From assembly GCA_964369225.1 (NCBI GenBank), contig CAYJER010000005.1:14396-78395 (forward strand): a stretch of DNA of 64,000 nucleotides. The letters run 5' to 3'. A program made the position numbers and the translations under genes. Of the stretch, positions 680 to 15,381 are shown piece after piece. This stretch comes from an uncultured Eubacteriales bacterium (GTDB lineage: Bacteria > Bacillota > Clostridia > Oscillospirales > Acutalibacteraceae). The notes beneath the pieces are model-generated. The model searched no databases. It saw only the letters and a program-made list of their open reading frames with translations, and was not told the DNA's origin. How positions within the stretch are numbered: position 1 is the stretch's first letter; every line of letters starts with the position of its first letter.

Positions 680-2659
680 ATGGCTAAAAAGCAAGAATAC
701 GGTAATGAGAGTATTTCAAGCCTAAAAGGTGCTGCCAGGGTTAGAACAAGACCCGCTGTTATCTTTGGTTCAGATGGTCTTGATGGTTGTAGACATACAA
801 TTTTCGAGATACTTTCTAACTCTATAGACGAAGCTAGACAAGGACACGGCGACAAAATCTATATCACACGATACGAGGATAACTCTGTCGAGATAGAAGA
901 CTTTGGGCGTGGTGTTCCTGTTGATTATAATATAAAAGAAGAACGCTACAACTGGGAGCTTGTCTTCTGTGAACTTTACGCTGGCGGAAAATACAACAAT
1001 AATTCAGATAATAACTATCAATATTCACTAGGTCTTAATGGTTTAGGTCTTTGTGCTACACAGTACTCCTCTGAATATATGGACGTTGACATTCGCCGTG
1101 ACGGTTTTAAATATACTCTTCACTTTGAAAAAGGTGAAATCGCAAGCGACATGATAAAAGAGCCTTACACTAAAAAGGATACAGGCACTAAAATTAAATG
1201 GAGACCAGACCTAGACGTTTTCACAGACATTGCAGTCCCTGCCTCTGACTATGAAGACATGATAAAAAGACAGGCAATTGTAAACGCTGGAATTACAATC
1301 AGGTTTAGAAATCAAGTTAAAAATAAATTCGAGACTAAAGAATTTTGTTATCCTAACGGAATTATGGATCACTTAAAAGAGCTTGTTGGCGAAAATTATA
1401 TATCCGCCCCTAGACTTTGGACAAGCGAGAAACAAGTTAAAGACAGAGCCGACATGGATTTATACAACGTTAAAATAAATGTTGCAGTCGCCTTTTCTAA
1501 CTTAGTCAACAACACAGAGTATTACCATAACTCTAGTTACCTTGAGTACGGCGGTGTGCCTGACAAGGCTGTTAGAAATGCCTTTGTTTACCAAATCGAC
1601 TCTTATATAAAGCAGACTAATAAATATACTAAGTCTGAAAGCAAGATTACTTATCAAGATGTTGAAGACTGCCTAGCAGTTGTGATATCCTCTTTCTCTA
1701 CACAAACTTCTTACGAAAACCAAACTAAAAAGGCAATCACAAACAAGGGTATTCAAGATGCCATGGTCGAAATGCTAAGGCATAATCTTGAAGTCTATTT
1801 TATAGAAAATCCATTAGAGGCAGAGCAAATTGCAAATCAGGTGCTTGTTAATAAAAGAAGCCGTGAAAATGCAGAAAAAACAAGGCTTAATCTTAAATCT
1901 AAACTAACAGGCAAAATGGATATAAGCAATAGAGTTGCTAAATTTGTAGATTGCAGAACAAAAAAGGTTGAAGACCGTGAGATTTTTATAGTTGAGGGTG
2001 ACTCGGCTCTTGGCGCTTGTAAGCAGGCTAGAGACCCAGATTTTCAGGCGATTATGCCAATTAGAGGTAAGATACTTAACTGTCTTAAGGCTGACTATGA
2101 CAGAATTTTTAAAAGTGACATTATTGTAGATCTTATGAAAGTTTTAGGCTGTGGCGTTCAAGTAAAATCAAAGTCTAACAAGAATTTATCTGACTTTGAC
2201 ATGAGCGCTTTGCGTTGGAATAAAGTTATTTTATGTACCGATGCTGATTACGACGGCTTCCAAATTAGAACTCTTCTATTAACAATGCTCTACAGGCTAA
2301 CTCCAGAGCTTATTACAGCTGGAAAAGTATATATAGCTGAGTCTCCACTATACGAGATAAACGACAAAGACAATAGCTATTTTGCCTATACAGAAAAAGA
2401 AAAAGAAGAAATTTTAAGCAAATTACAGGGCAAAAAATACAGTATTCAACGTTCTAAAGGACTAGGTGAAAATGAACCTGAAATGATGAATTTAACGACC
2501 ATGAACCCTAACACTAGAAGACTTATTAAGGTTCAATCAACCGATATTAGTGAAGCTGCCGACACATTCGACCTATTTTTAGGCGATAATTTAGCTGGCA
2601 GAAAAGATTATATAGCCGAAAATGGTAGCCTATATTTAGACGATTTAGACATTTCATAA
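680..2659 (+). CDS. parE: Type IIA topoisomerase ATPase subunit B, most likely topoisomerase IV ParE
   Basis: 659 aa. GHKL and TOPRIM motifs are present (EILSNSIDEA, EGDSA, PIRGKILN, DADYDG). It is paired with a ParC-like subunit that lacks a GyrA box. Confidence 0.8.
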   Translation: MAKKQEYGNESISSLKGAARVRTRPAVIFGSDGLDGCRHTIFEILSNSIDEARQGHGDKIYITRYEDNSVEIEDFGRGVPVDYNIKEERYNWELVFCELYAGGKYNNNSDNNYQYSLGLNGLGLCATQYSSEYMDVDIRRDGFKYTLHFEKGEIASDMIKEPYTKKDTGTKIKWRPDLDVFTDIAVPASDYEDMIKRQAIVNAGITIRFRNQVKNKFETKEFCYPNGIMDHLKELVGENYISAPRLWTSEKQVKDRADMDLYNVKINVAVAFSNLVNNTEYYHNSSYLEYGGVPDKAVRNAFVYQIDSYIKQTNKYTKSESKITYQDVEDCLAVVISSFSTQTSYENQTKKAITNKGIQDAMVEMLRHNLEVYFIENPLEAEQIANQVLVNKRSRENAEKTRLNLKSKLTGKMDISNRVAKFVDCRTKKVEDREIFIVEGDSALGACKQARDPDFQAIMPIRGKILNCLKADYDRIFKSDIIVDLMKVLGCGVQVKSKSNKNLSDFDMSALRWNKVILCTDADYDGFQIRTLLLTMLYRLTPELITAGKVYIAESPLYEINDKDNSYFAYTEKEKEEILSKLQGKKYSIQRSKGLGENEPEMMNLTTMNPNTRRLIKVQSTDISEAADTFDLFLGDNLAGRKDYIAENGSLYLDDLDIS

Positions 2660-2669
2660 AGGAGTAGCA

Positions 2670-4889
2670 ATGGCGAGAAGAAAAACCGAAAAAAAGAGCA
2701 ACCCAAAGGCAATAATTAGCGGAGCTGGAATTGTCTTAGAACAAGATATTAACGATACACTGCGTGACAACTTCATGCCATACGCCATGAGTGTTATATA
2801 TTCACGTGCAATCCCTGAAATTGACGGCTTTAAGCCATCTCACAGAAAATTATTGTACACCATGTACAAAATGGGTTTATTAGGAAATCAAAGAACCAAA
2901 AGTGCAAATATTGTCGGACAAACCATGAAACTTAATCCTCATGGCGACTCTGCAATTTACGAAACTATGGTAAGGCTTAGCCGTGGCTATGAGGCTTTAC
3001 TTCACCCTTATGTAGACTCAAAGGGTAATTTTGGTAAATTTTATTCACGTGATATGGCATGTGCTGCCTCAAGATATACCGAGGCAAAACTTGACTCATT
3101 ATGCAAAGAACTTTTCAAAGACATTGACAAAGACACAGTAGACTTTGTAGACAACTATGACAATACAATGAAAGAGCCTAGCCTACTTCCAGCTACATTT
3201 CCAAGTGTGCTTGTAAATGCAAACACAGGAATTGCAGTTGGAATGGCAAGTTCTATCTGTCCATTTAACCTAACAGAAATTTGCGAGACAACAATTGCAA
3301 TTATGCGTGATGAAAATGCAGATGTTTTAAACACTCTGCAAGCGCCTGACTTCCCTGGCGGTGGATTTATCATCTATGATCAAAAGGCAATTGAGCAAAT
3401 TTATTCTACTGGTAGAGGTAGTATAAAACTCCGTTGTAAATATAGCTTTGATAAATCTGCAAACTGTATAGATATAACAGAAATTCCGCCTACTACAAAT
3501 TCAGAAGTTATAGTAGAAAAGGTTGTAGACCTTGTAAAAACAGGCAAGATTAAAGATATTTCAGATATAAGAGACGAAACAGGACTTGCAGGACTTAAAC
3601 TTACTATAGACCTTAAAAGAGGTGTAGACCCTGACAAGCTTATGCAAAGGCTATACAAACTTACAACTTTAGAAGATACATTCTCTTGCAACTTTAATGT
3701 ACTTGTAGCTGGTGCTCCACGAGTTTTAGGCGTAAAAGCACTCTTAGAAGAGTGGATTGCCTTTAGAATTGAATGTGTTAGAAGAAGAACGCATTTTGAC
3801 CTTACAAAGAAAAAAGATAAACTTCACCTATTATTAGGTCTTAAAGAAATTCTTTTAGACATCGACAAGGCTATAAAAATAGTTAGAGAGACCAAAGAAG
3901 AATCTGAAGTTATACCAAACCTTATGATAGGTTTTGGAATTGACGAAATTCAAGCAGATTATGTCGCTGAAATTAAACTTCGTAATCTTAACAGAGAATT
4001 TATCCTAAAAAGAATTGACGAGATTGACAGTCTAAAAAAAGAGATAGACAATCTTGAAAGTATTCTAAAATCAAAGACAAAAGTTAAAAATATAATTATT
4101 AAAGAGTTAAACGAGGTAGCCAAAAATTACGGTAAGCCTAGACGCAGTATGCTTGTATTTGCAGATGAACTAGAAGAAGATATTGTAGTAGAGGAAATTC
4201 CTGACTACCCTGTAAACCTATTCTTTTCAAAAGAGGGATACTTTAAAAAGATTACACCTCAATCATTAAGAATGAGTTCAGAACATAAATTAAAGGAAGA
4301 AGACGAGATAATCTTACAATTAGAGTCAAGCAACGCAACAGATTTACTCTTCTTCTCACAAAAATCACAGGTCTACAAGTCAAGAGTATCAGAGTTTGCA
4401 GACACAAAGGCATCAGTTTTAGGTGACTATGTTCCAGCAAAACTTCAAATGGAAGACGGAGAAACCGCAATTCAGATGACTGTAACAAAGGACTACAGCG
4501 GATTTATGATATTTGTGTTTGAGAATGGAAAGGTAGCAAAAGTAGAGCTTTCAGCGTATCAAACTAAGACAAACAGAAAAAAACTGCTAAATGCCTATAA
4601 TGCTAACAGTGCTATTGTATCAATTATCCACATGACAGAAGACTCAAAGCTTCTTTTGACAGCCTCATCGGGCAGAATGTTAATTTTTAGCACAGATTTA
4701 ATAGCAACTAAAACCACAAAAAACACACAAGGAGTAGCTGCAATGACACTTAAAAAAGGACATAGAGTAATTTCGGCTACTGTCTATGAAAACGGAACTT
4801 TCTCAAACGAAAACCGATTTAATAAAAAGATCCCAGCCACAGGCGCCCTGCCAAACGGACAAGAAACAGCCTCACAAACTATGCTATAA
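2670..4889 (+). CDS. parC: Type IIA topoisomerase subunit A, most likely topoisomerase IV ParC
   Basis: 739 aa. Motifs GFKPSHRKLLY and the catalytic Tyr context AASRYTEAKL. The C-terminal domain is short and has no QRRGGKG GyrA box. Confidence 0.8.
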   Translation: MARRKTEKKSNPKAIISGAGIVLEQDINDTLRDNFMPYAMSVIYSRAIPEIDGFKPSHRKLLYTMYKMGLLGNQRTKSANIVGQTMKLNPHGDSAIYETMVRLSRGYEALLHPYVDSKGNFGKFYSRDMACAASRYTEAKLDSLCKELFKDIDKDTVDFVDNYDNTMKEPSLLPATFPSVLVNANTGIAVGMASSICPFNLTEICETTIAIMRDENADVLNTLQAPDFPGGGFIIYDQKAIEQIYSTGRGSIKLRCKYSFDKSANCIDITEIPPTTNSEVIVEKVVDLVKTGKIKDISDIRDETGLAGLKLTIDLKRGVDPDKLMQRLYKLTTLEDTFSCNFNVLVAGAPRVLGVKALLEEWIAFRIECVRRRTHFDLTKKKDKLHLLLGLKEILLDIDKAIKIVRETKEESEVIPNLMIGFGIDEIQADYVAEIKLRNLNREFILKRIDEIDSLKKEIDNLESILKSKTKVKNIIIKELNEVAKNYGKPRRSMLVFADELEEDIVVEEIPDYPVNLFFSKEGYFKKITPQSLRMSSEHKLKEEDEIILQLESSNATDLLFFSQKSQVYKSRVSEFADTKASVLGDYVPAKLQMEDGETAIQMTVTKDYSGFMIFVFENGKVAKVELSAYQTKTNRKKLLNAYNANSAIVSIIHMTEDSKLLLTASSGRMLIFSTDLIATKTTKNTQGVAAMTLKKGHRVISATVYENGTFSNENRFNKKIPATGALPNGQETASQTML

Positions 4890-4995: not shown

Positions 4996-5030
4996 TATTT
5001 TGTAAACTTCAAAGCTTAATATTTTAACCA

Positions 5031-5109
5031 TGTAGGGGACGGGTTTTCCGTCCCGAAAAACTAGCGGTTTTAGCTAAATTCCCACGGGACGGAAAACCCG
5101 TCCCCTACA
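5031..5109. repeat. REPIN-like element, class I (79 nt), with 25-bp perfect inverted arms TGTAGGGGACGGGTTTTCCGTCCCG
   Basis: Arms lie at 5031-5055 and 5085-5109 around a loop GAAAAACTAGCGGTTTTAGCTAAATTCCCAC. Near-identical 79-nt copies lie at 25730-25808 and 45861-45939, and a degenerate copy at 43182-43259. Confidence 0.9.
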
Positions 5110-5112
5110 TGC

Positions 5113-6678
5113 TTAATTTTCTAGTATACACTTACTAAAAACTCCTACAACCACAAAAAAACCTACGACATTAAGCCGTAGGTTTTTAATTAAATAAAGA
5201 AATATTGGTGGAGCACCAGCCTTCAAATCCGAAACATTTTCCATATCACTTAATGATAGTGTCTGCAATCCCTCTTTATAATTAAATGTAAAAGCAATTT
5301 TATCATCATAAAGATAAATGCTATTAACAAAGCTATCAATTAACCTCTGCTTTTGTTCATAGTGCGAAACATCTGTATTTCTAAACTTTTCTAGCCAAAA
5401 TTGTATTTGCTCTTTTGTGAGCATTGGCTTTTGCATTTCTTCATTGATTAGTAAAACTTCAAGCTCGCTTTTTCGGTTTTCTAATTCTTCTAATCTTTGC
5501 TTGGTAGAAGAAGTTAGCACACCTGCTTGTATAGCATTGAGCATATTTTCTACCCCACGATTAACTTCATCAATCTGTTTTTTAAGAAGTGGCAAGGTAG
5601 TATTTTCTTTTTTCTGCAAATCAAAGAGCATATCTGTGAGTTTTAAAATAACTGTATCGTCCATAAGCATATCCATTGTCTTTTTAACAACAATATCCTC
5701 AATCCACGCTTTGCGAACAGATTTTTTATCACAAGTTTTTCGCCTTTTTGCATTGCCACATTTGTAATACTGATGAAATGCACCATGTCTACCAGTGCCA
5801 CTTTCACCAATCATAAACGAACCACACTTGCCACAAAATAATTTAGTGGTAAGGAGATAAAATTCTTCTTTAGCTTTTGCTCTTGCAGGAGCTTTTTTGT
5901 TTTTCGCTAATCGCTCCCCCACTCTCTCAAATAATTCAATAGGCACAATTTGTGGTATGCCATTTTCGTGTAATACATCACAATATTTGTATTCACCAAT
6001 ATATCTACGATTTTTCAAAAGTCGTTTTGCAACATCGAATTTCACTGGTTGATTATTGCGATTTGTGATACCATTTGCATTAAGGTAATCAATAATGTCT
6101 TTAATATTTCCACCCTCTGAATATCGTTTAAAGGCTTCTAAAACTACTGGTGCAGTTAGTGGGTCAATCTGAAAATGTTGCTCATCATCAATGGTATAAC
6201 CTAAAGGCACACCACCACCATTATATTTACACTTTAGTGCATTTTCTGTAAGTCCTCTAGTGATTTTTTCTGATAACTCAACGGAATAAAACTCGGCATA
6301 ACCCTCAAGCAAACTTTCAAGTAATATACCTGTGCTGTCATCTGAAATTCTTTCGGTAACCGATAAAACTTTGACACCATTCTTACGTAAAATAGCTTTG
6401 TTGTGAGCAGAGTCGTAGCGATTTCTAGCGAACCTATCAAGTTTCCAAACAAGCACAACATCAAATAATTGTTTGTTGCTATCTCTAATCATTCGCTGAA
6501 ATTCTGGACGATTATCAGTCTTAGCTGACATAGCTCTATCGATATAAGTAGTTAAAATTGTAATGCCATTTTTCTCAGCATACTCTTTACATTCTCGAAG
6601 TTGCCCCTCAATACTTTCTTCTCTTTGGTTGTCCGAGCTGTAACGTGCATATATAACACCCTTGATAGTATTCACCAC
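5113..6678 (-). CDS. Large serine recombinase (resolvase catalytic domain, recombinase domain, zinc ribbon, coiled coil)
   Basis: 521 aa. N-terminal YARYSSDNQ and VWKLDRFARN; a zinc ribbon CGKCGS...YYKCGN; a C-terminal coiled coil. The last ~30 codons run through a terminator hairpin and may not be native. Confidence 0.85.
   Translation of the reverse strand: MVNTIKGVIYARYSSDNQREESIEGQLRECKEYAEKNGITILTTYIDRAMSAKTDNRPEFQRMIRDSNKQLFDVVLVWKLDRFARNRYDSAHNKAILRKNGVKVLSVTERISDDSTGILLESLLEGYAEFYSVELSEKITRGLTENALKCKYNGGGVPLGYTIDDEQHFQIDPLTAPVVLEAFKRYSEGGNIKDIIDYLNANGITNRNNQPVKFDVAKRLLKNRRYIGEYKYCDVLHENGIPQIVPIELFERVGERLAKNKKAPARAKAKEEFYLLTTKLFCGKCGSFMIGESGTGRHGAFHQYYKCGNAKRRKTCDKKSVRKAWIEDIVVKKTMDMLMDDTVILKLTDMLFDLQKKENTTLPLLKKQIDEVNRGVENMLNAIQAGVLTSSTKQRLEELENRKSELEVLLINEEMQKPMLTKEQIQFWLEKFRNTDVSHYEQKQRLIDSFVNSIYLYDDKIAFTFNYKEGLQTLSLSDMENVSDLKAGAPPIFLYLIKNLRLNVVGFFVVVGVFSKCILEN
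5154..5187. terminator. Bidirectional intrinsic terminator (CCTACG-9 nt-CGTAGG, flanked by an A-run and a T-run)
   Basis: The hairpin has a 7-U tail on the minus strand and a 5-U tail on the plus strand. It lies inside the annotated 3' end of the recombinase ORF. Confidence 0.6.
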
Positions 6679-6700
6679 CCTTTCGAATTGATTTAGTTTG

Positions 6701-7243
6701 CTAAAACATATTACTTTTATTGATTAAATAATAGTTCATATCACTCAGAACGTCTTCAAACTGTTCATAGTTCGTGATAGTGAATTTTAAAATATCTTGC
6801 ACATTGCAAGGCAGGATTAATGTTGGATTGTTGCATACAGGACATAGAGCAGAATTGTTGTTATCTTTTTTAATTCTATTTGAAACATCGAAAACTTCAA
6901 TACAGTTATAACAACCACATATTTTACTTTTCTCAAAATCTAATTTATTATTAATACAAGTATGTTTTAATTTTTTATATATTGTTTTTATCTCAGAAAA
7001 CTCTTTTTTTCTTGAAATCTCAACTGCACAAATAATGTTTTTTTCTTTTTTGAAATCTTCTCTCGTTATACTGCCACTATCTCTAAGTGCTTTAAGAGCA
7101 TTCCATTTCTCGTTTCTAATATTTATCCGTTCCTGTTCTTCTTCGTTTTCAATGTACGCCATATCAAACTTATCCATACCACAGGAAATAGCATCAAGCC
7201 TTTCATCGGCAGATAGTTCCCATAGGAAATCCCAGTCACTCAT
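6701..7243 (-). CDS. Hypothetical protein with a C-terminal Cys4 zinc-ribbon-like motif
   Basis: 180 aa. CGCYNC...(18 aa)...CPVC. It lies between the XRE regulator and the recombinase, with 22-24 nt gaps that suggest one operon. Confidence 0.5.
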   Translation of the reverse strand: MSDWDFLWELSADERLDAISCGMDKFDMAYIENEEEQERINIRNEKWNALKALRDSGSITREDFKKEKNIICAVEISRKKEFSEIKTIYKKLKHTCINNKLDFEKSKICGCYNCIEVFDVSNRIKKDNNNSALCPVCNNPTLILPCNVQDILKFTITNYEQFEDVLSDMNYYLINKSNMF

Positions 7244-7267
7244 TTTTGTACCTGCTTTCTATTATTT

Positions 7268-7621
7268 TCATTCTTTTTTCTCTAACATTTCAAATAAAGT
7301 TTGCTTCAATCTATCATTCATAGCCGAGTTTGGGTCGAAGCACATTTCAATAAATTCTTTAAGCTCTGGGTGACTTTTTTCGAGTTTTGGTTTGCACTCA
7401 AATTCCGCACCTTTCGGATTTTCTGTTCTTCCATAAATGTAGTCAAGCGATACATCAAAGAACTCTGCATACTTCAAAAGTGTTTCACAAGATGGCTCAC
7501 TTTGTTCATTTTCATAACGATTAACTGCACCGATTTTTATACCTAAAGCTTCTGCCATTTTCGTTTGTGATAGATTTATTTTACTTCTTAACTCTCGTAA
7601 TCTCTGTGCTACAATTTCCAT
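7268..7621 (-). CDS. XRE-family helix-turn-helix transcriptional regulator
   Basis: 117 aa with an N-terminal HTH (LSQTKMAEALGIKIGAVNRYENEQSEP). Confidence 0.8.
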   Translation of the reverse strand: MEIVAQRLRELRSKINLSQTKMAEALGIKIGAVNRYENEQSEPSCETLLKYAEFFDVSLDYIYGRTENPKGAEFECKPKLEKSHPELKEFIEMCFDPNSAMNDRLKQTLFEMLEKKE

Positions 7622-7686: not shown

Positions 7687-7716
7687 TCAAAAAACAAGAA
7701 AGATAAAACACAAAAA

Positions 7717-7764
7717 ACGAGAAAATTTATCTCGAAATTTTCATAAGAGATAAAATTTTCTCGT
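7717..7764. terminator. AT-rich 17-bp inverted repeat with U-tracts on both strands, a likely terminator of the mcrBC-Shedu-like operon
   Basis: ACGAGAAAATTTATCTC (7717-7733) pairs with GAGATAAAATTTTCTCGT (7747-7764). On the minus strand it is followed by TTTTTTG. Confidence 0.5.
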
Positions 7765-7783
7765 AATTTTTTAGCACTGTTTC

Positions 7784-7930
7784 AGTGCGTGGCTTCCACA
7801 ATTTATTGTGGGGTTTTAGGGTTTGGGATGCGTCCCAACAAGCGAGCAAGTAGGTGTGTGGGTGACCACACGCCCTGCTTGCTCGGCAAGAGTGTGTAGC
7901 CACTTGCCCTGCTTGCTAAGTTTGCAAGTC
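7784..7930. other. GC-rich multi-hairpin non-coding segment (function unknown)
   Basis: At least five consecutive hairpins, for example GCACT-5-AGTGC, CCACAAT-2-ATTGTGG, TGGGA-4-TCCCA and GAGCAAG...GTGTGG-4-CCACAC...CTTGCTC. A direct repeat GCCCTGCTTGCT occurs at 7872-7883 and 7906-7917. The local GC content is far above the flanks. Confidence 0.5.
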
Positions 7931-7933
7931 AAA

Positions 7934-9124
7934 TTAAAGCTCTAAGGCAAGAAGCATATTTTTAAGACGTTTTAGTAAGTCATCGTATGTAATGATATCA
8001 ACAATATTTTTATATTGTCGTTTTATAATTTCAAAATCATATTTTTGATTTTCTGTCAAATCATCGCTTCTGCCCATAATAAGAAACCCTTGTGGATTCA
8101 TAACGCGGATAGGTGTATCCATTTTCATTTCTTTAGATAAAGATTTTTCCAAATTTTCTTTTGGTTTACATTCAGTGTTTAAAATGTAAAGATATTTTTC
8201 AATTTGTACTATTGCACCTGTTAAATCTCTATCTGGAACATGGTTATTCCTATATTCTCCATTAGTCAATAATTTTATTTTGTTTGGTTTTTTTATTTCA
8301 AGTATATCAACGAAGCCATTTACATCAACAATGATAAAATCAGGTTTTTTATTGTGTCTACCATCATCACCTACATTGCATTCTCGCCTTGAAAAAATAT
8401 ATTTTGGAAAAACAATTCTTATTATATCGTTAATGAATTCTTGCCAATCCTTCTCTGTGTAAACATCACAATTTGCAAGCATATTTTCGAACTTATCTAA
8501 GGTAACAGTTAAAATTTCTTTTTGTAAAGGCTTGATATCGGTATAGAGGGTAGCGTGCGAATGTGGAGTTTTTTTATCAATATACCTATTGAATTCTATC
8601 TCTAAATTTCCTAAACCATCAAAGAAATTTCTAAGTATATTAGATATTCTCACATTGGCATATTTTTTCAATTCATAGGTGTTAGGGAACGTGCTTATCA
8701 TTGACATAAACTCATTGATTGGTAGATTTACTTTCTTATCATCTACATTTCCAATATAAATATCTTCACTTACAAGATTGTTAATTTTACGCATAATAGA
8801 TATGCGTTCTTGAGCTACAAACATTTTTATAATAATTTTAATATCTTTGTGAATATAAACGTCATTGTTTGTACTTAAGATTTCTTTTGAAAACAAGTAA
8901 TATTCTCCAATTAGAGTGGCAACTTTAAATCTTAATGTATCCTCATATTCGTTCATTAGTTCTTCAGATAAATCTTCAACCAAATCGCTTTCGCTAAAAC
9001 AAAAGCAATACTTTACATTGAAATATCCATCCTCTGCTATTTTTTGACGAATGCCGTCACACCCATTAAATGGACTATATTGCAATAATAAAGTATTTTC
9101 GTTTTTTATAAATTCAATACTCAT
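7934..9124 (-). CDS. Shedu-like (SduA / DUF4263-type) PD-(D/E)xK nuclease with an uncharacterised N-terminal domain
   Basis: 396 aa. The C-terminal half carries EKDWQEF, KKPDFIIVDVNGFVDILEIKKPN (the D...E-x-K core), QIEKYLY and a terminal ITYDDLL. The start ATG at 9124 is 1 nt after the mcrC stop, and the RBS AGAGGAGA lies inside mcrC. Confidence 0.65.
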   Translation of the reverse strand: MSIEFIKNENTLLLQYSPFNGCDGIRQKIAEDGYFNVKYCFCFSESDLVEDLSEELMNEYEDTLRFKVATLIGEYYLFSKEILSTNNDVYIHKDIKIIIKMFVAQERISIMRKINNLVSEDIYIGNVDDKKVNLPINEFMSMISTFPNTYELKKYANVRISNILRNFFDGLGNLEIEFNRYIDKKTPHSHATLYTDIKPLQKEILTVTLDKFENMLANCDVYTEKDWQEFINDIIRIVFPKYIFSRRECNVGDDGRHNKKPDFIIVDVNGFVDILEIKKPNKIKLLTNGEYRNNHVPDRDLTGAIVQIEKYLYILNTECKPKENLEKSLSKEMKMDTPIRVMNPQGFLIMGRSDDLTENQKYDFEIIKRQYKNIVDIITYDDLLKRLKNMLLALEL

Positions 9125-9125
9125 C

Positions 9126-10184
9126 TCATTCTCCTCTTGAAAACAATCGCTTAACTAGAACTTTTAACTGATTTTCAATCTCTAAAAAATCTCTGTTTAA
9201 ATCCAAACTCCTAATCTCAATCCGATTACCACCCATACTAAACTTTGCGTCTGGTGTAACTTCTTCGTCAGTTTTTGCATACAAAAGCATACCACTTACA
9301 TTACCTTTGTTATCCATATCCTTATTCTTCACATAAGTGAAAATTTGATAAAGATTGTGTGAGTGAAAAGTTTGCTTATTGCCGAACTGACTTGTTGCCA
9401 TACTTCTTGAATAATATTTTGCGTCGATAATAAGTGTGTGTATTCCGTTAGAAATCATAATATCTGACTGCATTTTAGGCAAGAACGAAACATATTCATT
9501 ATCGCTTTCAATATCCCACTCTATTTGCGAAGAAGACACTTTAAATTCTGGAAAATGTTTTTTATAATACTCTAAAATGAATTTTTCATATAGCCTTGAC
9601 ATTCTCTGTTCATCGAGGAATTTTTGCATTTTCATATCGCCATTTGCATCTTTTTGTAGCAGTCCTTTTATAACTAAATAGCAAATAGAAGTAAGCATTT
9701 GATAGCTTTGATTATTACGATTAAAACGAATATTCCAGTCAATAGTATATGGATTTAAAGTATCTACATCTTTGAAGTACATCATCAAGTTTTTAAGGTC
9801 TTTTTTCACTTGTGTTTTGATTTTTTCTCGAAGCAATATGTTAACAGTTGTCTTTATAATCTGATTAAGTTTAGTATTAACTGAAAATTCATCATAGCTA
9901 CAAACAAGCTGTTTTCGGAGCATAGTTTGTCCTTTGATTGAATGTGCAATATCAATTTTCTCACGCAAAGTAGCGAGTGGCTCAGTAATTGGAATATACT
10001 CTTTCCCAAGCCCTCTTTTAACTTGAAGTGCAATACCTTTAGCTAAAATTGCTGACAGTAAATCGGCTGTATTTTCAAAATCTTCACTCGCTAATTTCTC
10101 ATATCCATCATTTTTTAGAACAGAAAAAGCATAGGCAAGCATATAGTAAATATTTTGAATTCTTATTCCGTTTTCGGTAATCAT
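9126..10184 (-). CDS. mcrC: McrC-like nuclease subunit of a McrBC type IV restriction system
   Basis: 352 aa, which is the expected size. PD-(D/E)xK motif SDIMIS...LIIDAKYY. Its start overlaps the mcrB stop (ATGA at 10181-10184). Confidence 0.75.
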   Translation of the reverse strand: MITENGIRIQNIYYMLAYAFSVLKNDGYEKLASEDFENTADLLSAILAKGIALQVKRGLGKEYIPITEPLATLREKIDIAHSIKGQTMLRKQLVCSYDEFSVNTKLNQIIKTTVNILLREKIKTQVKKDLKNLMMYFKDVDTLNPYTIDWNIRFNRNNQSYQMLTSICYLVIKGLLQKDANGDMKMQKFLDEQRMSRLYEKFILEYYKKHFPEFKVSSSQIEWDIESDNEYVSFLPKMQSDIMISNGIHTLIIDAKYYSRSMATSQFGNKQTFHSHNLYQIFTYVKNKDMDNKGNVSGMLLYAKTDEEVTPDAKFSMGGNRIEIRSLDLNRDFLEIENQLKVLVKRLFSRGE

Positions 10185-12598
10185 ACTATCGCCCCTCGAA
10201 GTTTAGCTGTCCATTCCTCAACCCTACTGTTTTCATCGAACCAATATTCTTGCAACAGTGGTACTATTTCATAATTTACAACTGTTTGAAGCCAAGCATC
10301 ATCTATCACATCGTTTTCACTGCTTATAAAATAGCTGTGTCCTATTCTGAACCCACCACCTAAACTAACATCATCTTTTATTACATTATTAAGTTGTTTA
10401 ATAACTTCAATTAGCTTATCAAACTTAGGATTTGAAATGTTTTCTTGATAGTTTTTAAATCCGTCACTATTAAATGCTGGCTCTATTTCGAAAAACGCAA
10501 AACGACGACGAAGTGCATAATCAAGCATAGCAAGGCTTCTGTCAGCTGTATTCATCATACCGATAATATGTACATTTGACGGAATATAAAACTGCTCATC
10601 AGCATAAAGAAGTCGCATAGAATTACGCTCATCACGCTTATCGTGTTCGATTAACATAAACAATTCACCAAAGATTTTGGATAAATTACCACGATTTATT
10701 TCATCAATAATGAAGAAATAATCTCTCTCATTATCGTCCTGAGCTTCTTTACAGAACTTATAAAATGCACCATAATGAAGCTTAAATCCACTATTATCTG
10801 GACGATAACCCATTATAAAATCTTCATAAGCATAGCTTTGATGAAATTGTATCATCTCTACTCGGCTTGTATCACGCTCACCCATAATTGAATATGCAAG
10901 TCTTTTAGCAGCATAAGTTTTACCCACACCTGGAGCACCTTGTAAAATGATATTTTTCTTTCTGCTTAAAAGAGTAGTCAATGTTTCATAGTTTTCTTCG
11001 CTCATATATACTTGGGATAGGAAATTTTCTTTAGTATAAGGTAGGTATACAGTCACTTCATCATCTTCAATTATTTCACCATCATTAGTAAATAGAGTTT
11101 CTAATTTTTCTACATATTCAGTATATTGTGTAATATCTGTAAGTGTTTTTTGTACTGCCTGTCCTGGGTGTTCCCATTCACCTTTATGCGTCCAGTCAAT
11201 TTTTCTAGTATGCTTATATTCATTTCGTGTTTCATCATAAATATACTCAGATGTCACAATTCCTCTGCCTAAAACAGTTGAATAACCTCGCTTAACAATA
11301 ACAACATCACCAACATTCATTGAGTTTGCAAACTGCCATGATGCTAATGAGTCGTTTTTAAATGATTTTTCTTCACCTGATAGATTACGCATAGTAGTAA
11401 TTATTTCTTCTCGTGAACTGTAATCTTCTAAATCACCTAAATCATCCCAACCTATACCCATTATTTTATCTTGATAGAATTCATCCCAAAGCCTTGCTTG
11501 TTCACCAGGTGAGTATAGCCAATAACGTTTTTTTGAAATTGACTCATCATTAAATACTTTATCTGAATTATAACTCAAAAGAAATTTGTCAATTATATCT
11601 TTCAATTCCTCTTTTGAAGTTTCTTTATAATTAGTATAGATATCATAAAGATTTTTGTTTTTCTTCTCAATAGTTTGTTGATAATAACCTTTTCTACCAT
11701 TATCAAAATAAGGGTCAAATGTGTCCTTATATTGTTTTAGAGTGTTGTATTTAATACCACTTACTTCAGATGCTTTTTTCATATCATTGCTACAATTAGT
11801 TTTATATTCTTCATCAGAACTATGTAATCTTGCGTAATATAAGCACACTAGCGTAGCGAGGGTCTTATTAGATTCAGTAACACCGTTACTCCAAGCAAAG
11901 TGTGACATTTCTGGAAATGACGAAAATGGGTATTGTCCACTTTTAAATAGCACTTGGCATTGATTGCACATGGATATATATTCCTCACCTGTTGGAACAA
12001 AGCCTTTTACTATTTTTGGAAAAATGTCTACAACGCTTTTCATGTCATTATCTTCGTTATTTAAGAATGCTCTATTTTGTCCATCTAGGTTTAGAAATTT
12101 ATAAGGACGCATCCAGAAGAGTCCCATAGTGATTGTTGCTAACCCATTGCCTTTAGCATTCACTGCATTTTCAAATGAAGAAAATAATTCTTCATTAGCT
12201 ACGCCTGTATTTGCAAAGATAATTGCTTGTTGAAATAATTCCCATATTTCCGATGTCCCACCAAAGAACGCATTTTGGTTATTCATAGTTGGTATACCAT
12301 CAAATTCAGTAGGAACTTTAGACTTAAGATTAAATTGTTCCACATATAAATTTGCTATTTCAGTCCTATTCTCAGGCTTCAAAGCGCGACTGAATGTGGC
12401 AAAAATACTAAAAGGATCAATACAGTAATTTCTATCGCTCCACCAATCATCACGCTCAAAATGCAAATATTCGAGCTTTGTATGTTTTGAAACAAGATTC
12501 TTCATTATTTCAAATAGTTCATTTCTCTTATCTTTATATTCTAATAGTTTATCTGCCAATTCTTCGTAAAATGGTATCCAGTCAAATTTGTTTTCCAT
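10181..12598 (-). CDS. mcrB: McrB-like AAA+ GTPase with a long (~530 aa) N-terminal extension
   Basis: 805 aa. Walker A GAPGVGKTY, Walker B FFIIDEINRGNLSKIFGEL, and McrB signatures MNTADRS and RRRF. The N-terminal region includes a PUA/EVE-like block (YWLYSPGE...GIGW...VGDVVIVKRG). Confidence 0.8.
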   Translation of the reverse strand: MENKFDWIPFYEELADKLLEYKDKRNELFEIMKNLVSKHTKLEYLHFERDDWWSDRNYCIDPFSIFATFSRALKPENRTEIANLYVEQFNLKSKVPTEFDGIPTMNNQNAFFGGTSEIWELFQQAIIFANTGVANEELFSSFENAVNAKGNGLATITMGLFWMRPYKFLNLDGQNRAFLNNEDNDMKSVVDIFPKIVKGFVPTGEEYISMCNQCQVLFKSGQYPFSSFPEMSHFAWSNGVTESNKTLATLVCLYYARLHSSDEEYKTNCSNDMKKASEVSGIKYNTLKQYKDTFDPYFDNGRKGYYQQTIEKKNKNLYDIYTNYKETSKEELKDIIDKFLLSYNSDKVFNDESISKKRYWLYSPGEQARLWDEFYQDKIMGIGWDDLGDLEDYSSREEIITTMRNLSGEEKSFKNDSLASWQFANSMNVGDVVIVKRGYSTVLGRGIVTSEYIYDETRNEYKHTRKIDWTHKGEWEHPGQAVQKTLTDITQYTEYVEKLETLFTNDGEIIEDDEVTVYLPYTKENFLSQVYMSEENYETLTTLLSRKKNIILQGAPGVGKTYAAKRLAYSIMGERDTSRVEMIQFHQSYAYEDFIMGYRPDNSGFKLHYGAFYKFCKEAQDDNERDYFFIIDEINRGNLSKIFGELFMLIEHDKRDERNSMRLLYADEQFYIPSNVHIIGMMNTADRSLAMLDYALRRRFAFFEIEPAFNSDGFKNYQENISNPKFDKLIEVIKQLNNVIKDDVSLGGGFRIGHSYFISSENDVIDDAWLQTVVNYEIVPLLQEYWFDENSRVEEWTAKLRGAIV

Positions 12599-12628: not shown

Positions 12629-13300
12629 TTAAATTACTTCTTTCAAACTCCTAAAATACCTCTCCATCTCCCTAATTGCATTATCCATCTGAACATTAGC
12701 GATAACATCATTTTCAACTGCAAAATACCCATGTTTATTAAGCAGTTCTTTAGCTTTTTCAATCTCGTGGGCATTATTTACCCTTAAAAACTCTCGTTGC
12801 TCATTATGACTCAACTTGTTCATAAACTCGGCAAATAGGCTGTGTTTAACCTTTTCTAGCATATAATCAAAGCTAATACTTTTGATAAAATCATCAATAA
12901 TCGCAGTATCTCGCTGAAAACTTAGCTTTGTATTACCATTTTCTTCTGAAACTTGCTTGTAATGGATTAGTTTATCAATCGTTTCTTCGGACAAACCAAG
13001 TTGTTCGGCTATATTTTCATATTCGGTTTTGCGTGTATCAGAGTTTCCTAGCAGAAAATCCACCGAAACATCGTAAAAATCAGCAAATGCAACTAAATAT
13101 TCGATGCTCATACTACTTGTTCGCCCAAAAAGTGGGTGGTCTGGGTCGGAAATTTCGTAATTTTTCAAATTAGTGTGGCTGATATACACTTCTTTTTCAG
13201 CTAAAGCCTTTGAAAGTTCAAGAAATGTTAGTTTTCGTTCTTTTCTAAGCTCCATCAAGCGTTTTTTAGTGAGATATGCTCGTTCTTCGTTGTATTGCAA
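12629..13300 (-). CDS. XRE-family HTH regulator with an uncharacterised C-terminal domain (TTG start)
   Basis: 223 aa. N-terminal HTH (LTFLELSKALAEKEVYISHTNLKNYE). A GGAGG RBS lies 8 nt before the TTG. It sits immediately upstream of mcrB. Confidence 0.7.
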   Translation of the reverse strand: MQYNEERAYLTKKRLMELRKERKLTFLELSKALAEKEVYISHTNLKNYEISDPDHPLFGRTSSMSIEYLVAFADFYDVSVDFLLGNSDTRKTEYENIAEQLGLSEETIDKLIHYKQVSEENGNTKLSFQRDTAIIDDFIKSISFDYMLEKVKHSLFAEFMNKLSHNEQREFLRVNNAHEIEKAKELLNKHGYFAVENDVIANVQMDNAIREMERYFRSLKEVI

Positions 13301-13336: not shown

Positions 13337-13366
13337 ATTATAAACTTTTTGAATGGTATTTGTCAA
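13337..13366 (-). promoter_or_regulatory. Promoter candidate for the XRE-mcrBC operon (TTGACA-18 nt-TATAAT)
   Basis: On the minus strand the -35 is at 13366-13361 and the -10 at 13342-13337. Confidence 0.45.
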
Positions 13367-13788: not shown

Positions 13789-13864
<76 letters not shown>

Positions 13865-13958: not shown

Positions 13959-14070
13959 TGTCACATGAGAACAATGGCGTTCATCAAATAAAGGTAAGGA
14001 GGCTTCCGCTTTTTTGCTATATTTGGTGGACGCTTTTTTAACGTTTATTTTAGAAAGAAGGTTATACAGT

Positions 14071-15381
14071 ATGAAAAGTACTGCCAATCAGGTGCTGGAA
14101 TTCATAAGGGAAAACGATGTAAAATTTATTAGACTGGGTTTTTGTGATCTTTTAGGTGTACAAAAAAATATCTCTTTATTGTCAGATGAATTAGAGTCAG
14201 CTTTTGAGAATGGTGTTCCTTTTGATGCCTCATCAATTCTGGGCTTTAGAGATTCAAGACAGTCTGATTTATTGTTGTTTCCTGATCCATCAACACTTAC
14301 TGTTTTGCCGTGGAGACCTGATCCCGGTAGAGTAGTTAGATTTTTCTGTGATATAAAAATGCCAAACGGTGAGTATTACAAACACAACAGCAGATATATA
14401 TTAAAAAACACGCTAAAAAATTGTACCGACCTTGGTTATAACTGTAGGGTAGGATCTGACTGTGAGTTTTATCTTTTCAAAACCGATGATAATTCCGAAC
14501 CTACCTATAACACACTAGATTACGGTAGCTACCTTGATATTTCACCTCTTGATAAGGGTGAAAATATTAGACGTGAAATTTGCCTAAACTTAGAAGAAAT
14601 GGGATTAATGCCTGAAACTTCTCACCATGAAAAAGGCCCTGGACAAAATCAAATTGACTTTAAGTCAAGCGATGCCCTAAGTTGTGCCGATAACTTTTTA
14701 ACATTTAAATCGGTTGTCAAGGCTATTTCAGCTAGAAACGGTCTATACGCTTCTTTCATGCCAAAACCTCTTGAATATGAAAGTGGTAGCAGTCTTAGAA
14801 TTAATATCACTCTAAGCCAAAAAGGGCATAATGTGTTCGGTAATCAGCACGATGAAATTGCAGAAAGCTTTATTGCTGGTGTCATGGAAAAAGCAGCCGA
14901 AATATCTTTATTTCTATCTCCTATCATGAATTCATATGATAGATTAGGAAAACTAAATGCACCAAGATACGTCACATGGTCTCACCAAAACAGAGCGCAA
15001 TTAATTAGAGTTCCACTAGCTTCAAAAGACAAAATCAGAATGGAGCTACGATCAGCCGACCCAACTATTAACCCTTATCTAGCATTCTCTTTAATAATTG
15101 AGGCAGGTCTTTACGGAATTAAAAATAACTTGAAACTTGTAGAGGCAATCGACATAGACTTAAACACAGCCACTAAAGATATTCTAGAAACAATCGATAT
15201 GCTACCAAAAGATATATACGAAGCTGTAAAACTTGCGGAAAACTCTAGTTTTATCAAAGATGTTTTAGGCGAAAGTTTATTAAACAAGTATATTAGCATA
15301 AAAAAAGAGGAAATTGATAATTACGAAAAAGCAGAAAATAAGAAGAATTTCATAACTAAAAAATACTTTTATTATTATTAA
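14071..15381 (+). CDS. Glutamine synthetase type I-like protein with substitutions at catalytic and metal-ligand positions
   Basis: 436 aa counted from ATG 14071 (RBS GAAAGAAGG); the track start at 14014 is a TTG extension. The GS fold motifs FDASS, CEFYLF, SHHE, NRAQLIRVP and ELRSADPTINPYLA are present. However GQHEIDF is replaced by GQNQIDF, NGSGMH by SGSSLR, and GYEAP by KLNAP. Confidence 0.75.
   Translation: MKSTANQVLEFIRENDVKFIRLGFCDLLGVQKNISLLSDELESAFENGVPFDASSILGFRDSRQSDLLLFPDPSTLTVLPWRPDPGRVVRFFCDIKMPNGEYYKHNSRYILKNTLKNCTDLGYNCRVGSDCEFYLFKTDDNSEPTYNTLDYGSYLDISPLDKGENIRREICLNLEEMGLMPETSHHEKGPGQNQIDFKSSDALSCADNFLTFKSVVKAISARNGLYASFMPKPLEYESGSSLRINITLSQKGHNVFGNQHDEIAESFIAGVMEKAAEISLFLSPIMNSYDRLGKLNAPRYVTWSHQNRAQLIRVPLASKDKIRMELRSADPTINPYLAFSLIIEAGLYGIKNNLKLVEAIDIDLNTATKDILETIDMLPKDIYEAVKLAENSSFIKDVLGESLLNKYISIKKEEIDNYEKAENKKNFITKKYFYYY

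What the first reader, a model, noticed from the sequence alone, without database searches (positions are those of the whole stretch)
7934..12598. McrB-McrC translationally coupled to a Shedu-type nuclease: candidate three-gene defence operon
**Seen in sequence.**
- The mcrB stop overlaps the mcrC start (ATGA at 10181-10184).
- The mcrC stop (TGA, 9128-9126) is 1 nt from the ATG (9124) of a 396-aa ORF. That ORF's RBS (AGAGGAGA) lies inside mcrC.
- The third protein's C-terminal half has the block order I associate with SduA/DUF4263: EKDWQEF, KKPDFIIVDVNGFVDILEIKKPN (the D...ExK core), QIEKYLY, and a terminal ITYDDLL.
- Its N-terminal ~230 aa has no motif I recognise.

**Established knowledge.** McrBC is normally a two-gene type IV restriction system, and Shedu is described as a single-gene system.

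**Inference.** A single operon with stop/start coupling suggests stoichiometric co-expression and possibly functional coupling. For example, a second nuclease could be recruited to or activated by DNA ends produced by McrBC. Alternatively it could widen the target range beyond modified DNA.
Basis: partly seen in the sequence, partly recalled or inferred. Interest (0 to 1): 0.75.

Follow-up and report, generated by a model that had tools for sequence, protein, structure and literature searches.

The report
Shedu nuclease appended to McrBC operon
An McrBC restriction system (it cuts chemically modified DNA) and a Shedu nuclease are packed into one operon on a small mobile island, but comparison with related loci shows two independent defence systems riding together, an arrangement already reported for Shedu.

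Summary
On the minus strand:
- mcrB (12598..10181) overlaps mcrC (10184..9126) by ATGA.
- mcrC stops 1 nt before a 396-aa ORF (9124..7934).

The third ORF is a true Shedu nuclease:
- Pfam SduA_C 1.7e-29, and a full-length PADLOC SduA match at 1.2e-122.
- Its "unrecognised" N-terminal half is the DNA-end clamp domain of the solved E. coli SduA (PDB 8ps4/8ps6), by both sequence and predicted fold.

The three genes probably form one transcript together with an upstream HTH gene. They sit on a ~8.7-kb serine-recombinase island.

The linkage is inherited but not obligatory:
- One divergent relative keeps mcrC-sduA (McrC 69%, SduA 59% identity).
- Two close mcrBC relatives carry only sduA remnants.
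- 86 other orthologous mcrBC loci lack sduA. Many hold other defence cargo in that slot.
- About 90 loci with the same SduA subfamily pair it instead with type I R-M, BREX, Hachiman, YhcG or UvrD genes, often with overlapping junctions.
- E. coli SduA defends alone.

Shedu genes inside R-M loci, including type IV, were already reported (Gu et al.).

Verdict: a new member of a known kind. Functional synergy, with McrBC breaks feeding an end-sensing Shedu, is plausible but untested.

The parts
13337..13366 (-). Consensus sigma-70-like promoter (TTGACA-18-TATAAT), the likely operon promoter
   Evidence: 12 of 12 hexamer matches. It lies 37 nt upstream of the HTH gene start (13300).
12629..13300 (-). 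223-aa HTH protein, a candidate regulator and first gene of the operon, 30 nt upstream of mcrB
   Evidence: Weak HTH and CapH/RstR-like hits. Homologues (52-54% identity) sit upstream of mcrB in L092, L100, L111, L113 and L139; L112 has one at 49%. No terminator-like site on the coding strand before mcrB.
10181..12598 (-). mcrB: N-terminal helical domain (DUF8425), a YTH/EVE-like reader (DUF8426, about aa 356-500), then the AAA+ GTPase and lid
   Evidence: AAA_5 8.1e-26. PDB EcoKMcrB 7vsr/6ut6 at about 3e-93 over aa 490-802. Walker A G554APGVGKT, Walker B D632-E633, N683TAD. Precomputed Pfam PF28527, PF28530, PF07728, PF28529. AF2 model pLDDT 79; best Foldseek hits are YTH and EVE domains, E about 2e-3, prob 1.0.
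9126..10184 (-). mcrC: PD-(D/E)xK nuclease subunit; its start overlaps the mcrB stop (ATGA)
   Evidence: Pfam McrBC 7.3e-36. NCBIfam McrC equivalog at 382 bits, above its 338-bit cutoff. D241...D254-A-K256.
9132..9139 (-). Shine-Dalgarno (AGAGGAGA) for sduA, inside the 3' end of mcrC
   Evidence: L170 and L174 also have their own GGAGG-like sites ahead of sduA, with 16- and 12-nt spacers.
7934..9124 (-). sduA: type I Shedu nuclease with an EcSduA-type N-terminal clamp domain and linker (about aa 1-220) and the DUF4263 PD-(D/E)xK domain (aa 222-384)
   Evidence: Pfam SduA_C 1.7e-29. PADLOC SduA PDLC00388 1.2e-122 over aa 2-395. PDB 8ps4 2.7e-99 by profile and 1.8e-57 by single sequence; isolated N-terminal domain 8ps6 1.8e-33 and 3.5e-19. 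AF2 pLDDT 87; Foldseek 8ps5_A 5.9e-33 and 8ps6 1.2e-11 with TMt 0.71. E224, D262, E276, K278 and Q307 are invariant in the family.
7700..7933 (-). Highly structured 3' region ending in an intrinsic terminator (stem 7734-7718 plus U-run), the end of the operon
   Evidence: terminator-like site. (MFE -86 kcal/mol, z = -8.2 against shuffles). (26-nt GC-rich direct repeat at 7858-7883 and 7892-7917).
5113..7621 (-). Island backbone downstream of the operon: HTH_3 repressor-like gene (7621..7268, own promoter 7686-7658), a 180-aa Cys-rich protein (7243..6701) and a large serine recombinase (6678..5113)
   Evidence: The same HTH223-mcrB-mcrC-HTH117 order, without sduA, is seen in L092, L111, L113 and L139, with the serine recombinase also present in L092; L100 and L112 end before the downstream genes.
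13789..13864 (-). tRNA-Ala(GGC) at the right edge of the island. Housekeeping genes flank both sides (gyrB/gyrA-like 680-4889; glnA 14014-15381)

Best explanation
Two self-sufficient defence modules have been joined into one transcription unit on a ~8.7-kb serine-recombinase island. The island lies between a gyrA-like gene and tRNA-Ala.

**Module 1: type IV McrBC restriction enzyme.** McrB carries a YTH/EVE-like modified-base reader ahead of an intact GTPase. McrC carries the PD-DxK nuclease. By homology to EcoKMcrBC (established knowledge), it binds modified DNA, translocates using GTP and makes double-strand breaks.

**Module 2: type I Shedu nuclease of the E. coli SduA subfamily.** By homology, it forms a tetramer whose N-terminal domains clamp free dsDNA ends. 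Its DUF4263 domain then nicks near the end.

**Expression (inferred).** The HTH gene, mcrB, mcrC and sduA are transcribed from the promoter at 13366-13337 and terminate at 7734-7718. sduA is translated from its own Shine-Dalgarno.

**Relationship between the modules.** sduA is an add-on, not a subunit. It joined the mcrBC cassette in an ancestor of this clade and is being lost repeatedly. Any benefit of the linkage is layered immunity. Shedu covers linear or unmodified DNA, and McrBC covers modified DNA, which can evade Shedu. McrBC breaks may also supply ends for Shedu.

**Shown:** identities, intact motifs, operon layout and the distribution across related loci. **Inferred:** co-transcription, end sensing and synergy.
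For: **Identity**
- Family scans, solved-structure searches and fold searches.
- Intact catalytic motifs in all three proteins.

**Operon layout**
- Promoter, no terminator-like site on the coding strand between the genes, and a strong terminator after sduA.

**Shared inheritance of mcrC-sduA**
- L170 has mcrC (69%) followed 16 nt later by the closest known SduA (59%; the next best is 48%).
- SduA divergence tracks McrC divergence. In L174 the McrC is 82% identical and the sduA remnant 74-79%.

**Dispensability of sduA**
- L174 keeps only about 200 nt of frameshifted sduA 5' end.
- L178 keeps only the RBS, ATG and 3 codons.
- L173 (McrC 90%), L175, L176 and L177 have none.
- 0 of 82 loci with 57-64% McrC have sduA.
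- Several loci share the island backbone genes with no sduA between mcrC and the HTH gene.
- The slot after mcrC holds other cargo (BnzB-like, Avs4-like, Fic/PDC-S04, WYL, unknowns), sometimes overlapping mcrC.

**Autonomy and promiscuity of this SduA subfamily**
- tblastn with this window's McrB and McrC found nothing in 80 species-representative genome loci.
- A McrC HMM hit only L170 among 91 SduA loci.
- Neighbours are instead type I R-M, BREX, Hachiman, YhcG, UvrD-like, MmeI-type and Fic genes, with -4 to +5 nt junctions.
- A common Lachnospira homologue has no McrBC nearby and lies 288 nt from the nearest upstream gene, in a defence island.
- EcSduA works as a single gene, and its N-terminal domain clamps DNA ends (bioRxiv 10.1101/2023.08.10.552762).

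**Prior report**
- Shedu inside R-M loci, including type IV (bioRxiv 10.1101/2023.08.10.552793).
Against: - The adjacency persisted to 69%/59% protein identity. That hints at some selective value for the pairing beyond drift.
- No transcript data exist, so co-transcription is inferred. A weak internal promoter-like site (12646-12619) exists.
- The end-stacking Trp25 of EcSduA, which is essential there, aligns to G24 here. It is a Trp in only 3 of 33 sequences aligned. R106 and K116 are also not matched in register. End sensing may therefore differ.
The true frequency of sduA in this sub-clade is uncertain.
- The locus sampling depends on peptide-pattern scans.
Confidence: 0.7

Rival explanations
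1. Dedicated two-stage restriction cascade. In this clade McrBC and SduA are selected as a functional unit. McrBC cuts modified invading DNA. The new double-strand ends are the specific trigger for the end-clamping SduA, which nicks them and blocks repair or recombination-dependent replication. No stable complex is needed, but the pairing itself is adaptive.
For: - The SduA N-terminal domain is of the EcSduA end-clamp type.
- EcSduA binds free dsDNA ends and nicks 14 bp from the 5' end.
- Basic and aromatic DNA-backbone contacts are conserved: K154, Y181, R256.
- mcrC-sduA is retained in L170 at deep divergence.
- The same subfamily sits preferentially beside DNA-acting defence systems: type I R-M, BREX and Hachiman.
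- Gu et al. suggest that Shedu complements R-M and BREX.
Against: - sduA has been lost repeatedly from close mcrBC relatives, which argues against strong selection for the pair.
- Linear phage genomes already present ends, so McrBC is not needed to create the trigger.
- Trp25 is not conserved.
- No experiment has been done.
Confidence: 0.17
2. Obligate three-subunit enzyme. SduA physically joins the McrB-McrC complex as a second nuclease, and translational coupling sets the stoichiometry.
For: - The 1-nt stop/start spacing, with the SD inside mcrC.
- A single operon.
Against: - The junction length is not conserved: 1, 12 and 16 nt, each with its own SD.
- 37% of same-strand gene pairs in the window are equally tight.
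- Close mcrBC relatives have lost sduA, and 86 orthologous loci lack it.
- The SduA subfamily is autonomous in E. coli and is paired with unrelated partners (bioRxiv 10.1101/2023.08.10.552762).
- McrC here is a standard full-length equivalog with no extra domain.
Confidence: 0.04
3. Complementary target range only. The pairing is kept because Shedu is evaded by hypermodified phage DNA while type IV McrBC attacks modified DNA. The two systems never act on the same molecule.
For: - ghmC modification of T4 blocks an E. coli Shedu, and hmC-T4 is an McrBC target (bioRxiv 10.1101/2022.06.16.496414).
- McrB carries a YTH/EVE-like modified-base reader.
Against: - This is not exclusive of the best explanation. 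It is one way that explanation could confer benefit.
- The modification recognised by this McrB is unknown.
- In another study EcSduA defended well against glucosylated T-even phages, so evasion by modification is not general.
Confidence: 0.09

Closest known systems
E. coli SduA (EcSduA; PDB 8ps4, 8ps5, 8ps6), type I Shedu of Loeff et al.
   Same: - Full-length homology at 33% identity: profile E 2.7e-99, Foldseek 5.9e-33.
- Same N-terminal clamp domain, helical linker and DUF4263 nuclease.
- All PD-(D/E)xK motif residues are present.
- Several DNA-backbone contacts are conserved (K154, Y181, R256).
   Different: - The essential end-stacking Trp25 aligns to Gly24.
- R106 and K116 are not matched in register, and the Y256 loop is absent.
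- EcSduA was studied as a lone gene, whereas this one is the last gene of an mcrBC operon.
Shedu genes embedded in restriction-modification and BREX loci (Gu et al., bioRxiv 10.1101/2023.08.10.552793; Mol Cell 2025)
   Same: A Shedu nuclease lies inside a restriction operon. That paper counts 602 of 5,499 Shedu genes within type I-IV R-M systems and suggests that Shedu complements R-M and BREX.
   Different: - The main text gives no McrBC-specific example and no analysis of junctions, inheritance or loss.
- This report documents a specific mcrB-mcrC-sduA cassette, its one diverged relative and two decay remnants.
EcoKMcrBC (type IV, modification-dependent restriction; PDB 6ut6, 7vsr, 6hz4)
   Same: - McrB GTPase domain matches at E about 3e-93, with Walker A, Walker B and NTAD.
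- McrC matches the NCBIfam equivalog above its cutoff, with the D...DxK motif.
- The mcrB and mcrC genes overlap.
   Different: - The McrB N-terminus is DUF8425 plus a YTH/EVE-like DUF8426 domain (about 500 aa), not the E. coli ADAM/DUF3578 5mC-binding domain.
- The full-length NCBIfam McrB score (319 bits) is below its cutoff (637 bits).
- An upstream HTH gene and a downstream sduA share the operon.
BREX plus type IV BrxU/GmrSD islands (Picton et al. 2021, as cited in Gu et al.)
   Same: A modification-dependent type IV enzyme is co-located with a second system of different specificity, giving complementary protection.
   Different: The partners differ (McrBC and Shedu here). No experimental evidence of complementarity exists for this locus.

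Membership tests
Shedu (SduA / DUF4263) | C-terminal DUF4263 (SduA_C) domain scoring above the Pfam gathering threshold | tested here: met
   PF14082: 103.5 bits against a cutoff of 27, E 1.7e-29, aa 222-384, covering profile positions 2-159 of 159.
Shedu (SduA / DUF4263) | PD-(D/E)xK catalytic motifs I-IV (E, D, ExK, Q) | tested here: met
   E224, D262, E276-x-K278 and Q307 are present and invariant in 32 family members. They align to the EcSduA motifs.
Shedu type I, EcSduA subfamily | N-terminal clamp domain and helical linker homologous to EcSduA residues 1-188 | tested here: met
   Isolated N-terminal domain 8ps6: profile E 1.8e-33, phmmer 3.5e-19, Foldseek 1.2e-11 with TMt 0.71. PADLOC PDLC00388 matches full length at 1.2e-122.
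Shedu type I, EcSduA subfamily | End-stacking Trp25 and patch residues that are essential for EcSduA end binding | tested here: inconclusive
   W25 aligns to G24, not conserved (W in 3 of 33). R106 aligns to E106, with R107 adjacent. K116 aligns to N116. R154 aligns to K154, Y181 to Y181 and K263 to R256, all conserved.
Shedu (SduA / DUF4263) | Homotetramer, with anti-phage defence conferred by the single gene | not testable with these tools
   Needs expression and phage assays. Shown for EcSduA only (bioRxiv 10.1101/2023.08.10.552762).
McrBC type IV restriction | McrB AAA+ GTPase with Walker A, Walker B and the NxxD signature | tested here: met
   GAPGVGKT at 554, DEINRGN at 632, NTAD at 683. 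AAA_5 8.1e-26. PDB McrB about 3e-93.
McrBC type IV restriction | McrC with a PD...DxK nuclease motif, encoded immediately after mcrB | tested here: met
   NCBIfam NF007277 equivalog: 382 bits against a cutoff of 338. D241...D254-A-K256. ATGA overlap.
McrBC type IV restriction | E. coli-type McrB over its full length, including the ADAM/DUF3578 5mC-binding N-terminus | tested here: not met
   NF008457 scores 319 bits against a cutoff of 637 and covers only aa 508-802. The N-terminus is DUF8425 plus DUF8426.
McrBC type IV restriction | N-terminal modified-base reader domain on McrB | tested here: inconclusive
   In the AF2 model, aa 356-500 have pLDDT of about 85-94. The best Foldseek hits are YTH (m6A readers) and EVE proteins (1zce, 2gbs), with prob 1.0 but E only about 2e-3 and TMt about 0.5. 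No sequence hit in the PDB.
Hypothetical dedicated three-gene McrB-McrC-SduA system | Synteny conserved across orthologous mcrBC loci | tested here: not met
   Of 89 McrC loci apart from the window, one has intact sduA (L170), two have remnants (L174, L178) and 86 have none.
Hypothetical dedicated three-gene McrB-McrC-SduA system | This SduA lineage is found specifically with McrBC | tested here: not met
   0 of 80 genome loci and 0 of 7 viral loci have McrB or McrC. A McrC HMM hits only L170 among 91 loci. Partners are HsdS/R/M, PglZ, HamA, YhcG, UvrD-like, MmeI-type and Fic.
Hypothetical dedicated three-gene McrB-McrC-SduA system | Mutual functional dependence or a physical complex | not testable with these tools
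   No multimer prediction or experiment was available.

The most novel reading that the evidence does not exclude
In this clade the cassette works as a two-stage restriction cascade. A YTH/EVE-guided McrBC cuts modified invader DNA. The resulting double-strand ends are captured by an end-clamping Shedu, which nicks them so that they cannot be repaired or used for recombination-dependent replication. This would be a built-in analogue of the restriction-then-RecBCD pathway, and it would explain why this Shedu subfamily is so often joined to restriction operons.
Probability: 0.18. Interest if true: 0.55.

Novelty: new member of a known kind. Interest (0 to 1): 0.3.

Why it matters
If nothing more than co-located modules, this is an ordinary example of defence genes packed into one operon on a mobile island.

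It still adds two useful points:
- This EcSduA-type Shedu subfamily habitually attaches itself, often by start/stop overlap, to the 3' or internal positions of other DNA-targeting defence operons: McrBC, type I R-M, BREX, Hachiman and YhcG.
- The position after mcrC in this gut-associated McrBC clade is a variable cargo slot.

If the synergy reading is true, it would give a simple, testable model of how an end-sensing nuclease amplifies restriction. It would also give a rationale for the R-M/Shedu association reported statistically by Gu et al.

Tried and rejected
- **Source contig.** Exact look-up of the window's SduA failed; the protein is not on record. Cluster look-up gave no names or accessions.
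- **Island DNA against plasmids and phages.** Megablast matched only the tRNA-Ala. SduA protein hits in plasmids and phages (9 and 1 records) showed no McrBC under or beside the match.
- **Insertion point.** I aligned the region after sduA with the region after mcrC in backbone relatives (L092, L111, L113). The intergenic DNA is too diverged to align meaningfully.
- **Pfam on the McrB N-terminal 500 aa.** No hit in the tool's Pfam copy and no PDB sequence hit. The domain names come from precomputed annotations and the fold from AF2 and Foldseek. A weak MutY/OGG-like resemblance of aa 1-240 (E > 0.2) was rejected as not significant.
- **CoCoNuT/McrBC census paper.** It has no mention of Shedu or DUF4263.
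- **Flanking direct repeats as att sites.** None were convincing.
- **Rfam scan of the island.** Only the tRNA scored. The sub-threshold miRNA-like hits reflect a long hairpin.
- **Chance adjacency.** Rejected as the sole explanation because of L170 and the two remnants.
- **Pseudogene or passenger without function.** Rejected because the ORF is intact and all catalytic residues are conserved.

Full report
**1. The observation**

The minus strand of window 7934-12598 carries three contiguous ORFs, exactly as described:
- mcrB (805 aa, 12598..10181). Its TGA overlaps the ATG of mcrC (ATGA at 10184-10181).
- mcrC (352 aa, 10184..9126).
- A 396-aa ORF (9124..7934) that starts one base after the mcrC stop. 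Its AGAGGAGA Shine-Dalgarno (9139-9132) lies inside mcrC.

Tight spacing alone is unremarkable here:
- In a crude ORF call of the window, 16 of 43 same-strand neighbour pairs have gaps of 5 nt or less.
- The mcrC-sduA spacer differs among relatives: 1, 12 and 16 nt.

**2. What the three proteins are**

*McrC.* It matches Pfam McrBC (7.3e-36) and the NCBIfam McrC equivalog above its cutoff (382 against 338 bits). It has D241...D254-A-K256.

*McrB.*
- It has a canonical AAA+ GTPase: Walker A at 554, Walker B D632/E633, NTAD at 683.
- It matches EcoKMcrB structures at about 3e-93 over aa 490-802.
- Its 500-aa N-terminus is not the E. coli 5mC-binding domain. The full-length NCBIfam McrB score is below its cutoff.
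- Precomputed Pfam calls the N-terminus DUF8425 plus DUF8426.
- In an AlphaFold model (pLDDT 79), aa 356-500 most resemble YTH and EVE modified-base readers (Foldseek prob 1.0, E about 2e-3). This fits a modification-dependent enzyme. The modification it reads is unknown.

*The third protein, a Shedu nuclease.*
- Pfam SduA_C scores 1.7e-29 over aa 222-384.
- A PADLOC SduA model covers aa 2-395 at 1.2e-122.
- E224, D262, E276-x-K278 and Q307 are invariant across 32 homologues.
  - A profile of the family hits PDB 8ps4 full length (2.7e-99) and the isolated N-terminal domain 8ps6 (1.8e-33).
  - The single sequence gives 1.8e-57 and 3.5e-19.
  - An AlphaFold model (pLDDT 87.3) finds 8ps5_A (5.9e-33) and 8ps6 (1.2e-11, TMt 0.71) as top Foldseek hits.
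- Loeff et al. showed that EcSduA is a tetramer whose N-terminal domains clamp free dsDNA ends. It nicks 14 bp from the 5' end and defends as a single gene (bioRxiv 10.1101/2023.08.10.552762).
- One caveat applies. The essential end-stacking Trp25 aligns to Gly24 here and is a Trp in only 3 of 33 sequences aligned. R106 and K116 are also not matched in register. R154, Y181 and K263 are conserved as K154, Y181 and R256.

**3. Surroundings**

- A perfect sigma-70-like promoter (13366-13337) precedes a 223-aa HTH gene (13300..12629). That gene ends 30 nt before mcrB.
- No terminator-like site lies on the coding strand between the four genes.
- The 240 nt after sduA fold very stably (z = -8.2) and end in a hairpin plus U-run at 7734-7718.
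- Downstream lie an HTH_3 repressor-like gene with its own promoter, a 180-aa Cys-rich protein and a large serine recombinase.
- The block is flanked by gyrB/gyrA-like genes on one side and by tRNA-Ala and glnA on the other.
- The operon is therefore cargo of a ~8.7-kb mobile island.

**4. Is the linkage conserved?**

*Starting from SduA.*
- I examined 80 species-representative genome loci holding full-length homologues (32-47% identity).
- tblastn with this window's McrB and McrC found nothing in them.
- A McrC HMM hit only one of 91 SduA loci.
- Immediate neighbours are instead type I HsdR/S/M, Eco57I/MmeI-type methylases, YhcG nucleases, UvrD-like helicases, HamA and PglZ.
- Many of those junctions are -4 to +5 nt.
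- A 48%-identical homologue follows Hachiman genes by 21 nt.
- A very common Lachnospira homologue has no McrBC nearby and lies 288 nt from the nearest upstream gene, in a defence island.

*Starting from McrC.*
- 82 loci with 57-64% identity all have mcrB-mcrC, and none has sduA.
- The position after mcrC is a variable slot. It holds:
  - a 391-aa unknown (20 loci);
  - a Bunzi BnzB-like gene (13 loci);
  - a 223-aa unknown, overlapping mcrC by 4 nt in most of these loci (10 loci);
  - a DnaJ-like protein (8 loci);
  - WYL, Avs4-like and Fic/PDC-S04 genes.
- Several loci (L092, L111, L113, L139) share HTH223-mcrB-mcrC-HTH117, with the serine recombinase also in L092, and have no sduA.

*The exception.*
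- The closest SduA homologue in 5.8 billion proteins (P0002, 59% identity; the next best is 48%) lies on a 2.1-kb metagenome contig, L170.
- It sits 16 nt after a McrC that is 69% identical to the window's.

*The closest McrC relatives.*
- L174 (McrC 82%, McrB GTPase 90%) keeps only about 200 nt of frameshifted sduA 5' end (aa 1-28 at 79% identity, aa 28-66 at 74%). Unrelated housekeeping genes follow.
- L178 (McrC 82%) keeps only the RBS, ATG and three codons.
- L173 (McrC 90%, but McrB only 64%, so a mosaic), L175 (79%), L176 (73%) and L177 (75%) show no trace.
- In a neighbour-joining McrC tree, the window and L173 are sister to L174 and L178. L170 groups with L176 and L177.

The simplest reading has three steps:
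- sduA joined the mcrBC cassette once, in an ancestor of the >65% clade.
- It then co-diverged with mcrC.
- It has since been lost several times.

The pairing is inherited. sduA is nevertheless dispensable for keeping mcrBC, and McrBC is not needed by this SduA lineage.

**5. How it most likely works**

The best-supported model (confidence about 0.7) is two autonomous modules in one transcript:
- McrBC recognises modified DNA through the YTH/EVE-like reader and cuts it in a GTP-dependent way. This is by homology and established McrBC knowledge.
- SduA acts as an EcSduA-like nuclease on free DNA ends. This is by homology, and is weakened by the missing Trp25.

Linkage gives layered immunity and joint mobility. 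Two non-exclusive benefits are plausible:
- *Complementary range.* Hypermodified T4 DNA blocks an E. coli Shedu, while hmC DNA is an McrBC target (bioRxiv 10.1101/2022.06.16.496414).
- *Synergy.* McrBC breaks supply ends for SduA.

A dedicated cascade (about 0.17) or a physical three-subunit enzyme (about 0.04) is not excluded. The repeated losses, the variable junction and the promiscuous partners argue against both.

**6. Comparison with what is known**

- Gu et al. already report 602 of 5,499 Shedu genes inside type I-IV R-M systems and 87 inside BREX loci. They suggest that Shedu complements those systems (bioRxiv 10.1101/2023.08.10.552793, section 9).
- A later BREX survey repeats the link (PMC12839542).
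- The McrBC census paper does not mention Shedu.
- No paper found here describes a specific mcrB-mcrC-sduA cassette.
- This locus is therefore a new member of a known kind, not a new system.

**7. Verdict**

It is a real operon with some evolutionary depth, but not a dedicated three-gene system.
- Interest is 0.3.

**8. Limits**

- There are no expression or functional data.
- Only eight loci of the close McrC clade (window included) could be inspected.
- Locus sampling relied on peptide-pattern scans.

Noticed in passing
L088-L169 (downstream of mcrC, e.g. L103:2002-3198, L126:2093-3589, L141:7013-7693, L146:7051-7953): In the 57-64% McrC clade, the position right after mcrC is a variable cargo slot. 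It holds a 391-398-aa protein with no family hit (20 loci), a Bunzi BnzB-like protein (13), a 223-aa unknown that overlaps mcrC by 4 nt in most of its loci (10), a DnaJ-like 280-300-aa protein (8), and WYL, Avs4-like NACHT and Fic/PDC-S04 genes. The unknowns may be undescribed defence genes.
   Followed up: partly
L020, L033, L050, L068, L081, L085, L086, L066, L019 (junctions upstream of sduA): EcSduA-type Shedu genes overlap or abut (-4 to +5 nt) unrelated upstream defence genes: UvrD-like helicase, HsdS, YhcG PDDEXK nuclease (with PglZ downstream in L081 and L086; BREX), MmeI/Eco57I-type methylase and Fic. This subfamily seems to attach itself habitually to other defence operons.
   Followed up: partly
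window 12629-13300 (-) and promoter 13337-13366: A 223-aa HTH protein with weak CapH/RstR-like similarity and an unassigned C-terminal domain sits 30 nt upstream of mcrB, behind a perfect sigma-70 consensus promoter. Homologues (49-54% identity) precede mcrB in six related loci. It may be a regulator of the defence operon.
   Followed up: partly
window 5024-5116: A 32-nt GC-rich inverted repeat (97% complementary, 29-nt loop) lies between the gyrA-like gene and the 3' end of the serine recombinase gene. It gives sub-threshold miRNA-like Rfam hits on both strands. It could be a bidirectional terminator or related to the island end.
   Followed up: no
window 7858-7917 and 7700-7940 (-): Two copies of a 26-nt GC-rich direct repeat lie just after the sduA stop, in a region that is unusually GC-rich for this AT-rich DNA. 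As RNA the region folds far better than shuffled controls (z = -8.2), before the intrinsic terminator at 7734-7718.
   Followed up: partly
window 10181-12598 (McrB aa 1-500): The McrB N-terminus is DUF8425 (helical) plus DUF8426. The latter is predicted to adopt a YTH/EVE-like fold, suggesting a modified-base reader of unknown specificity. The architecture is widespread in gut Firmicutes, for example Mediterraneibacter gnavus.
   Followed up: partly
L173 versus window (mcrB/mcrC): The cassette is a mosaic. L173 has McrC at 90% identity but the McrB GTPase at only 64% and a different, longer N-terminus (Mrr_N, EVE). L174 has the McrB GTPase at 90% but McrC at 82%. This indicates recombination within mcrBC cassettes.
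   Followed up: no
window 6701-7243 (-): A 180-aa protein with CxxC...CPxC motifs and no family assignment lies between the HTH_3 gene and the serine recombinase. It is probably part of the island's own machinery.
   Followed up: no
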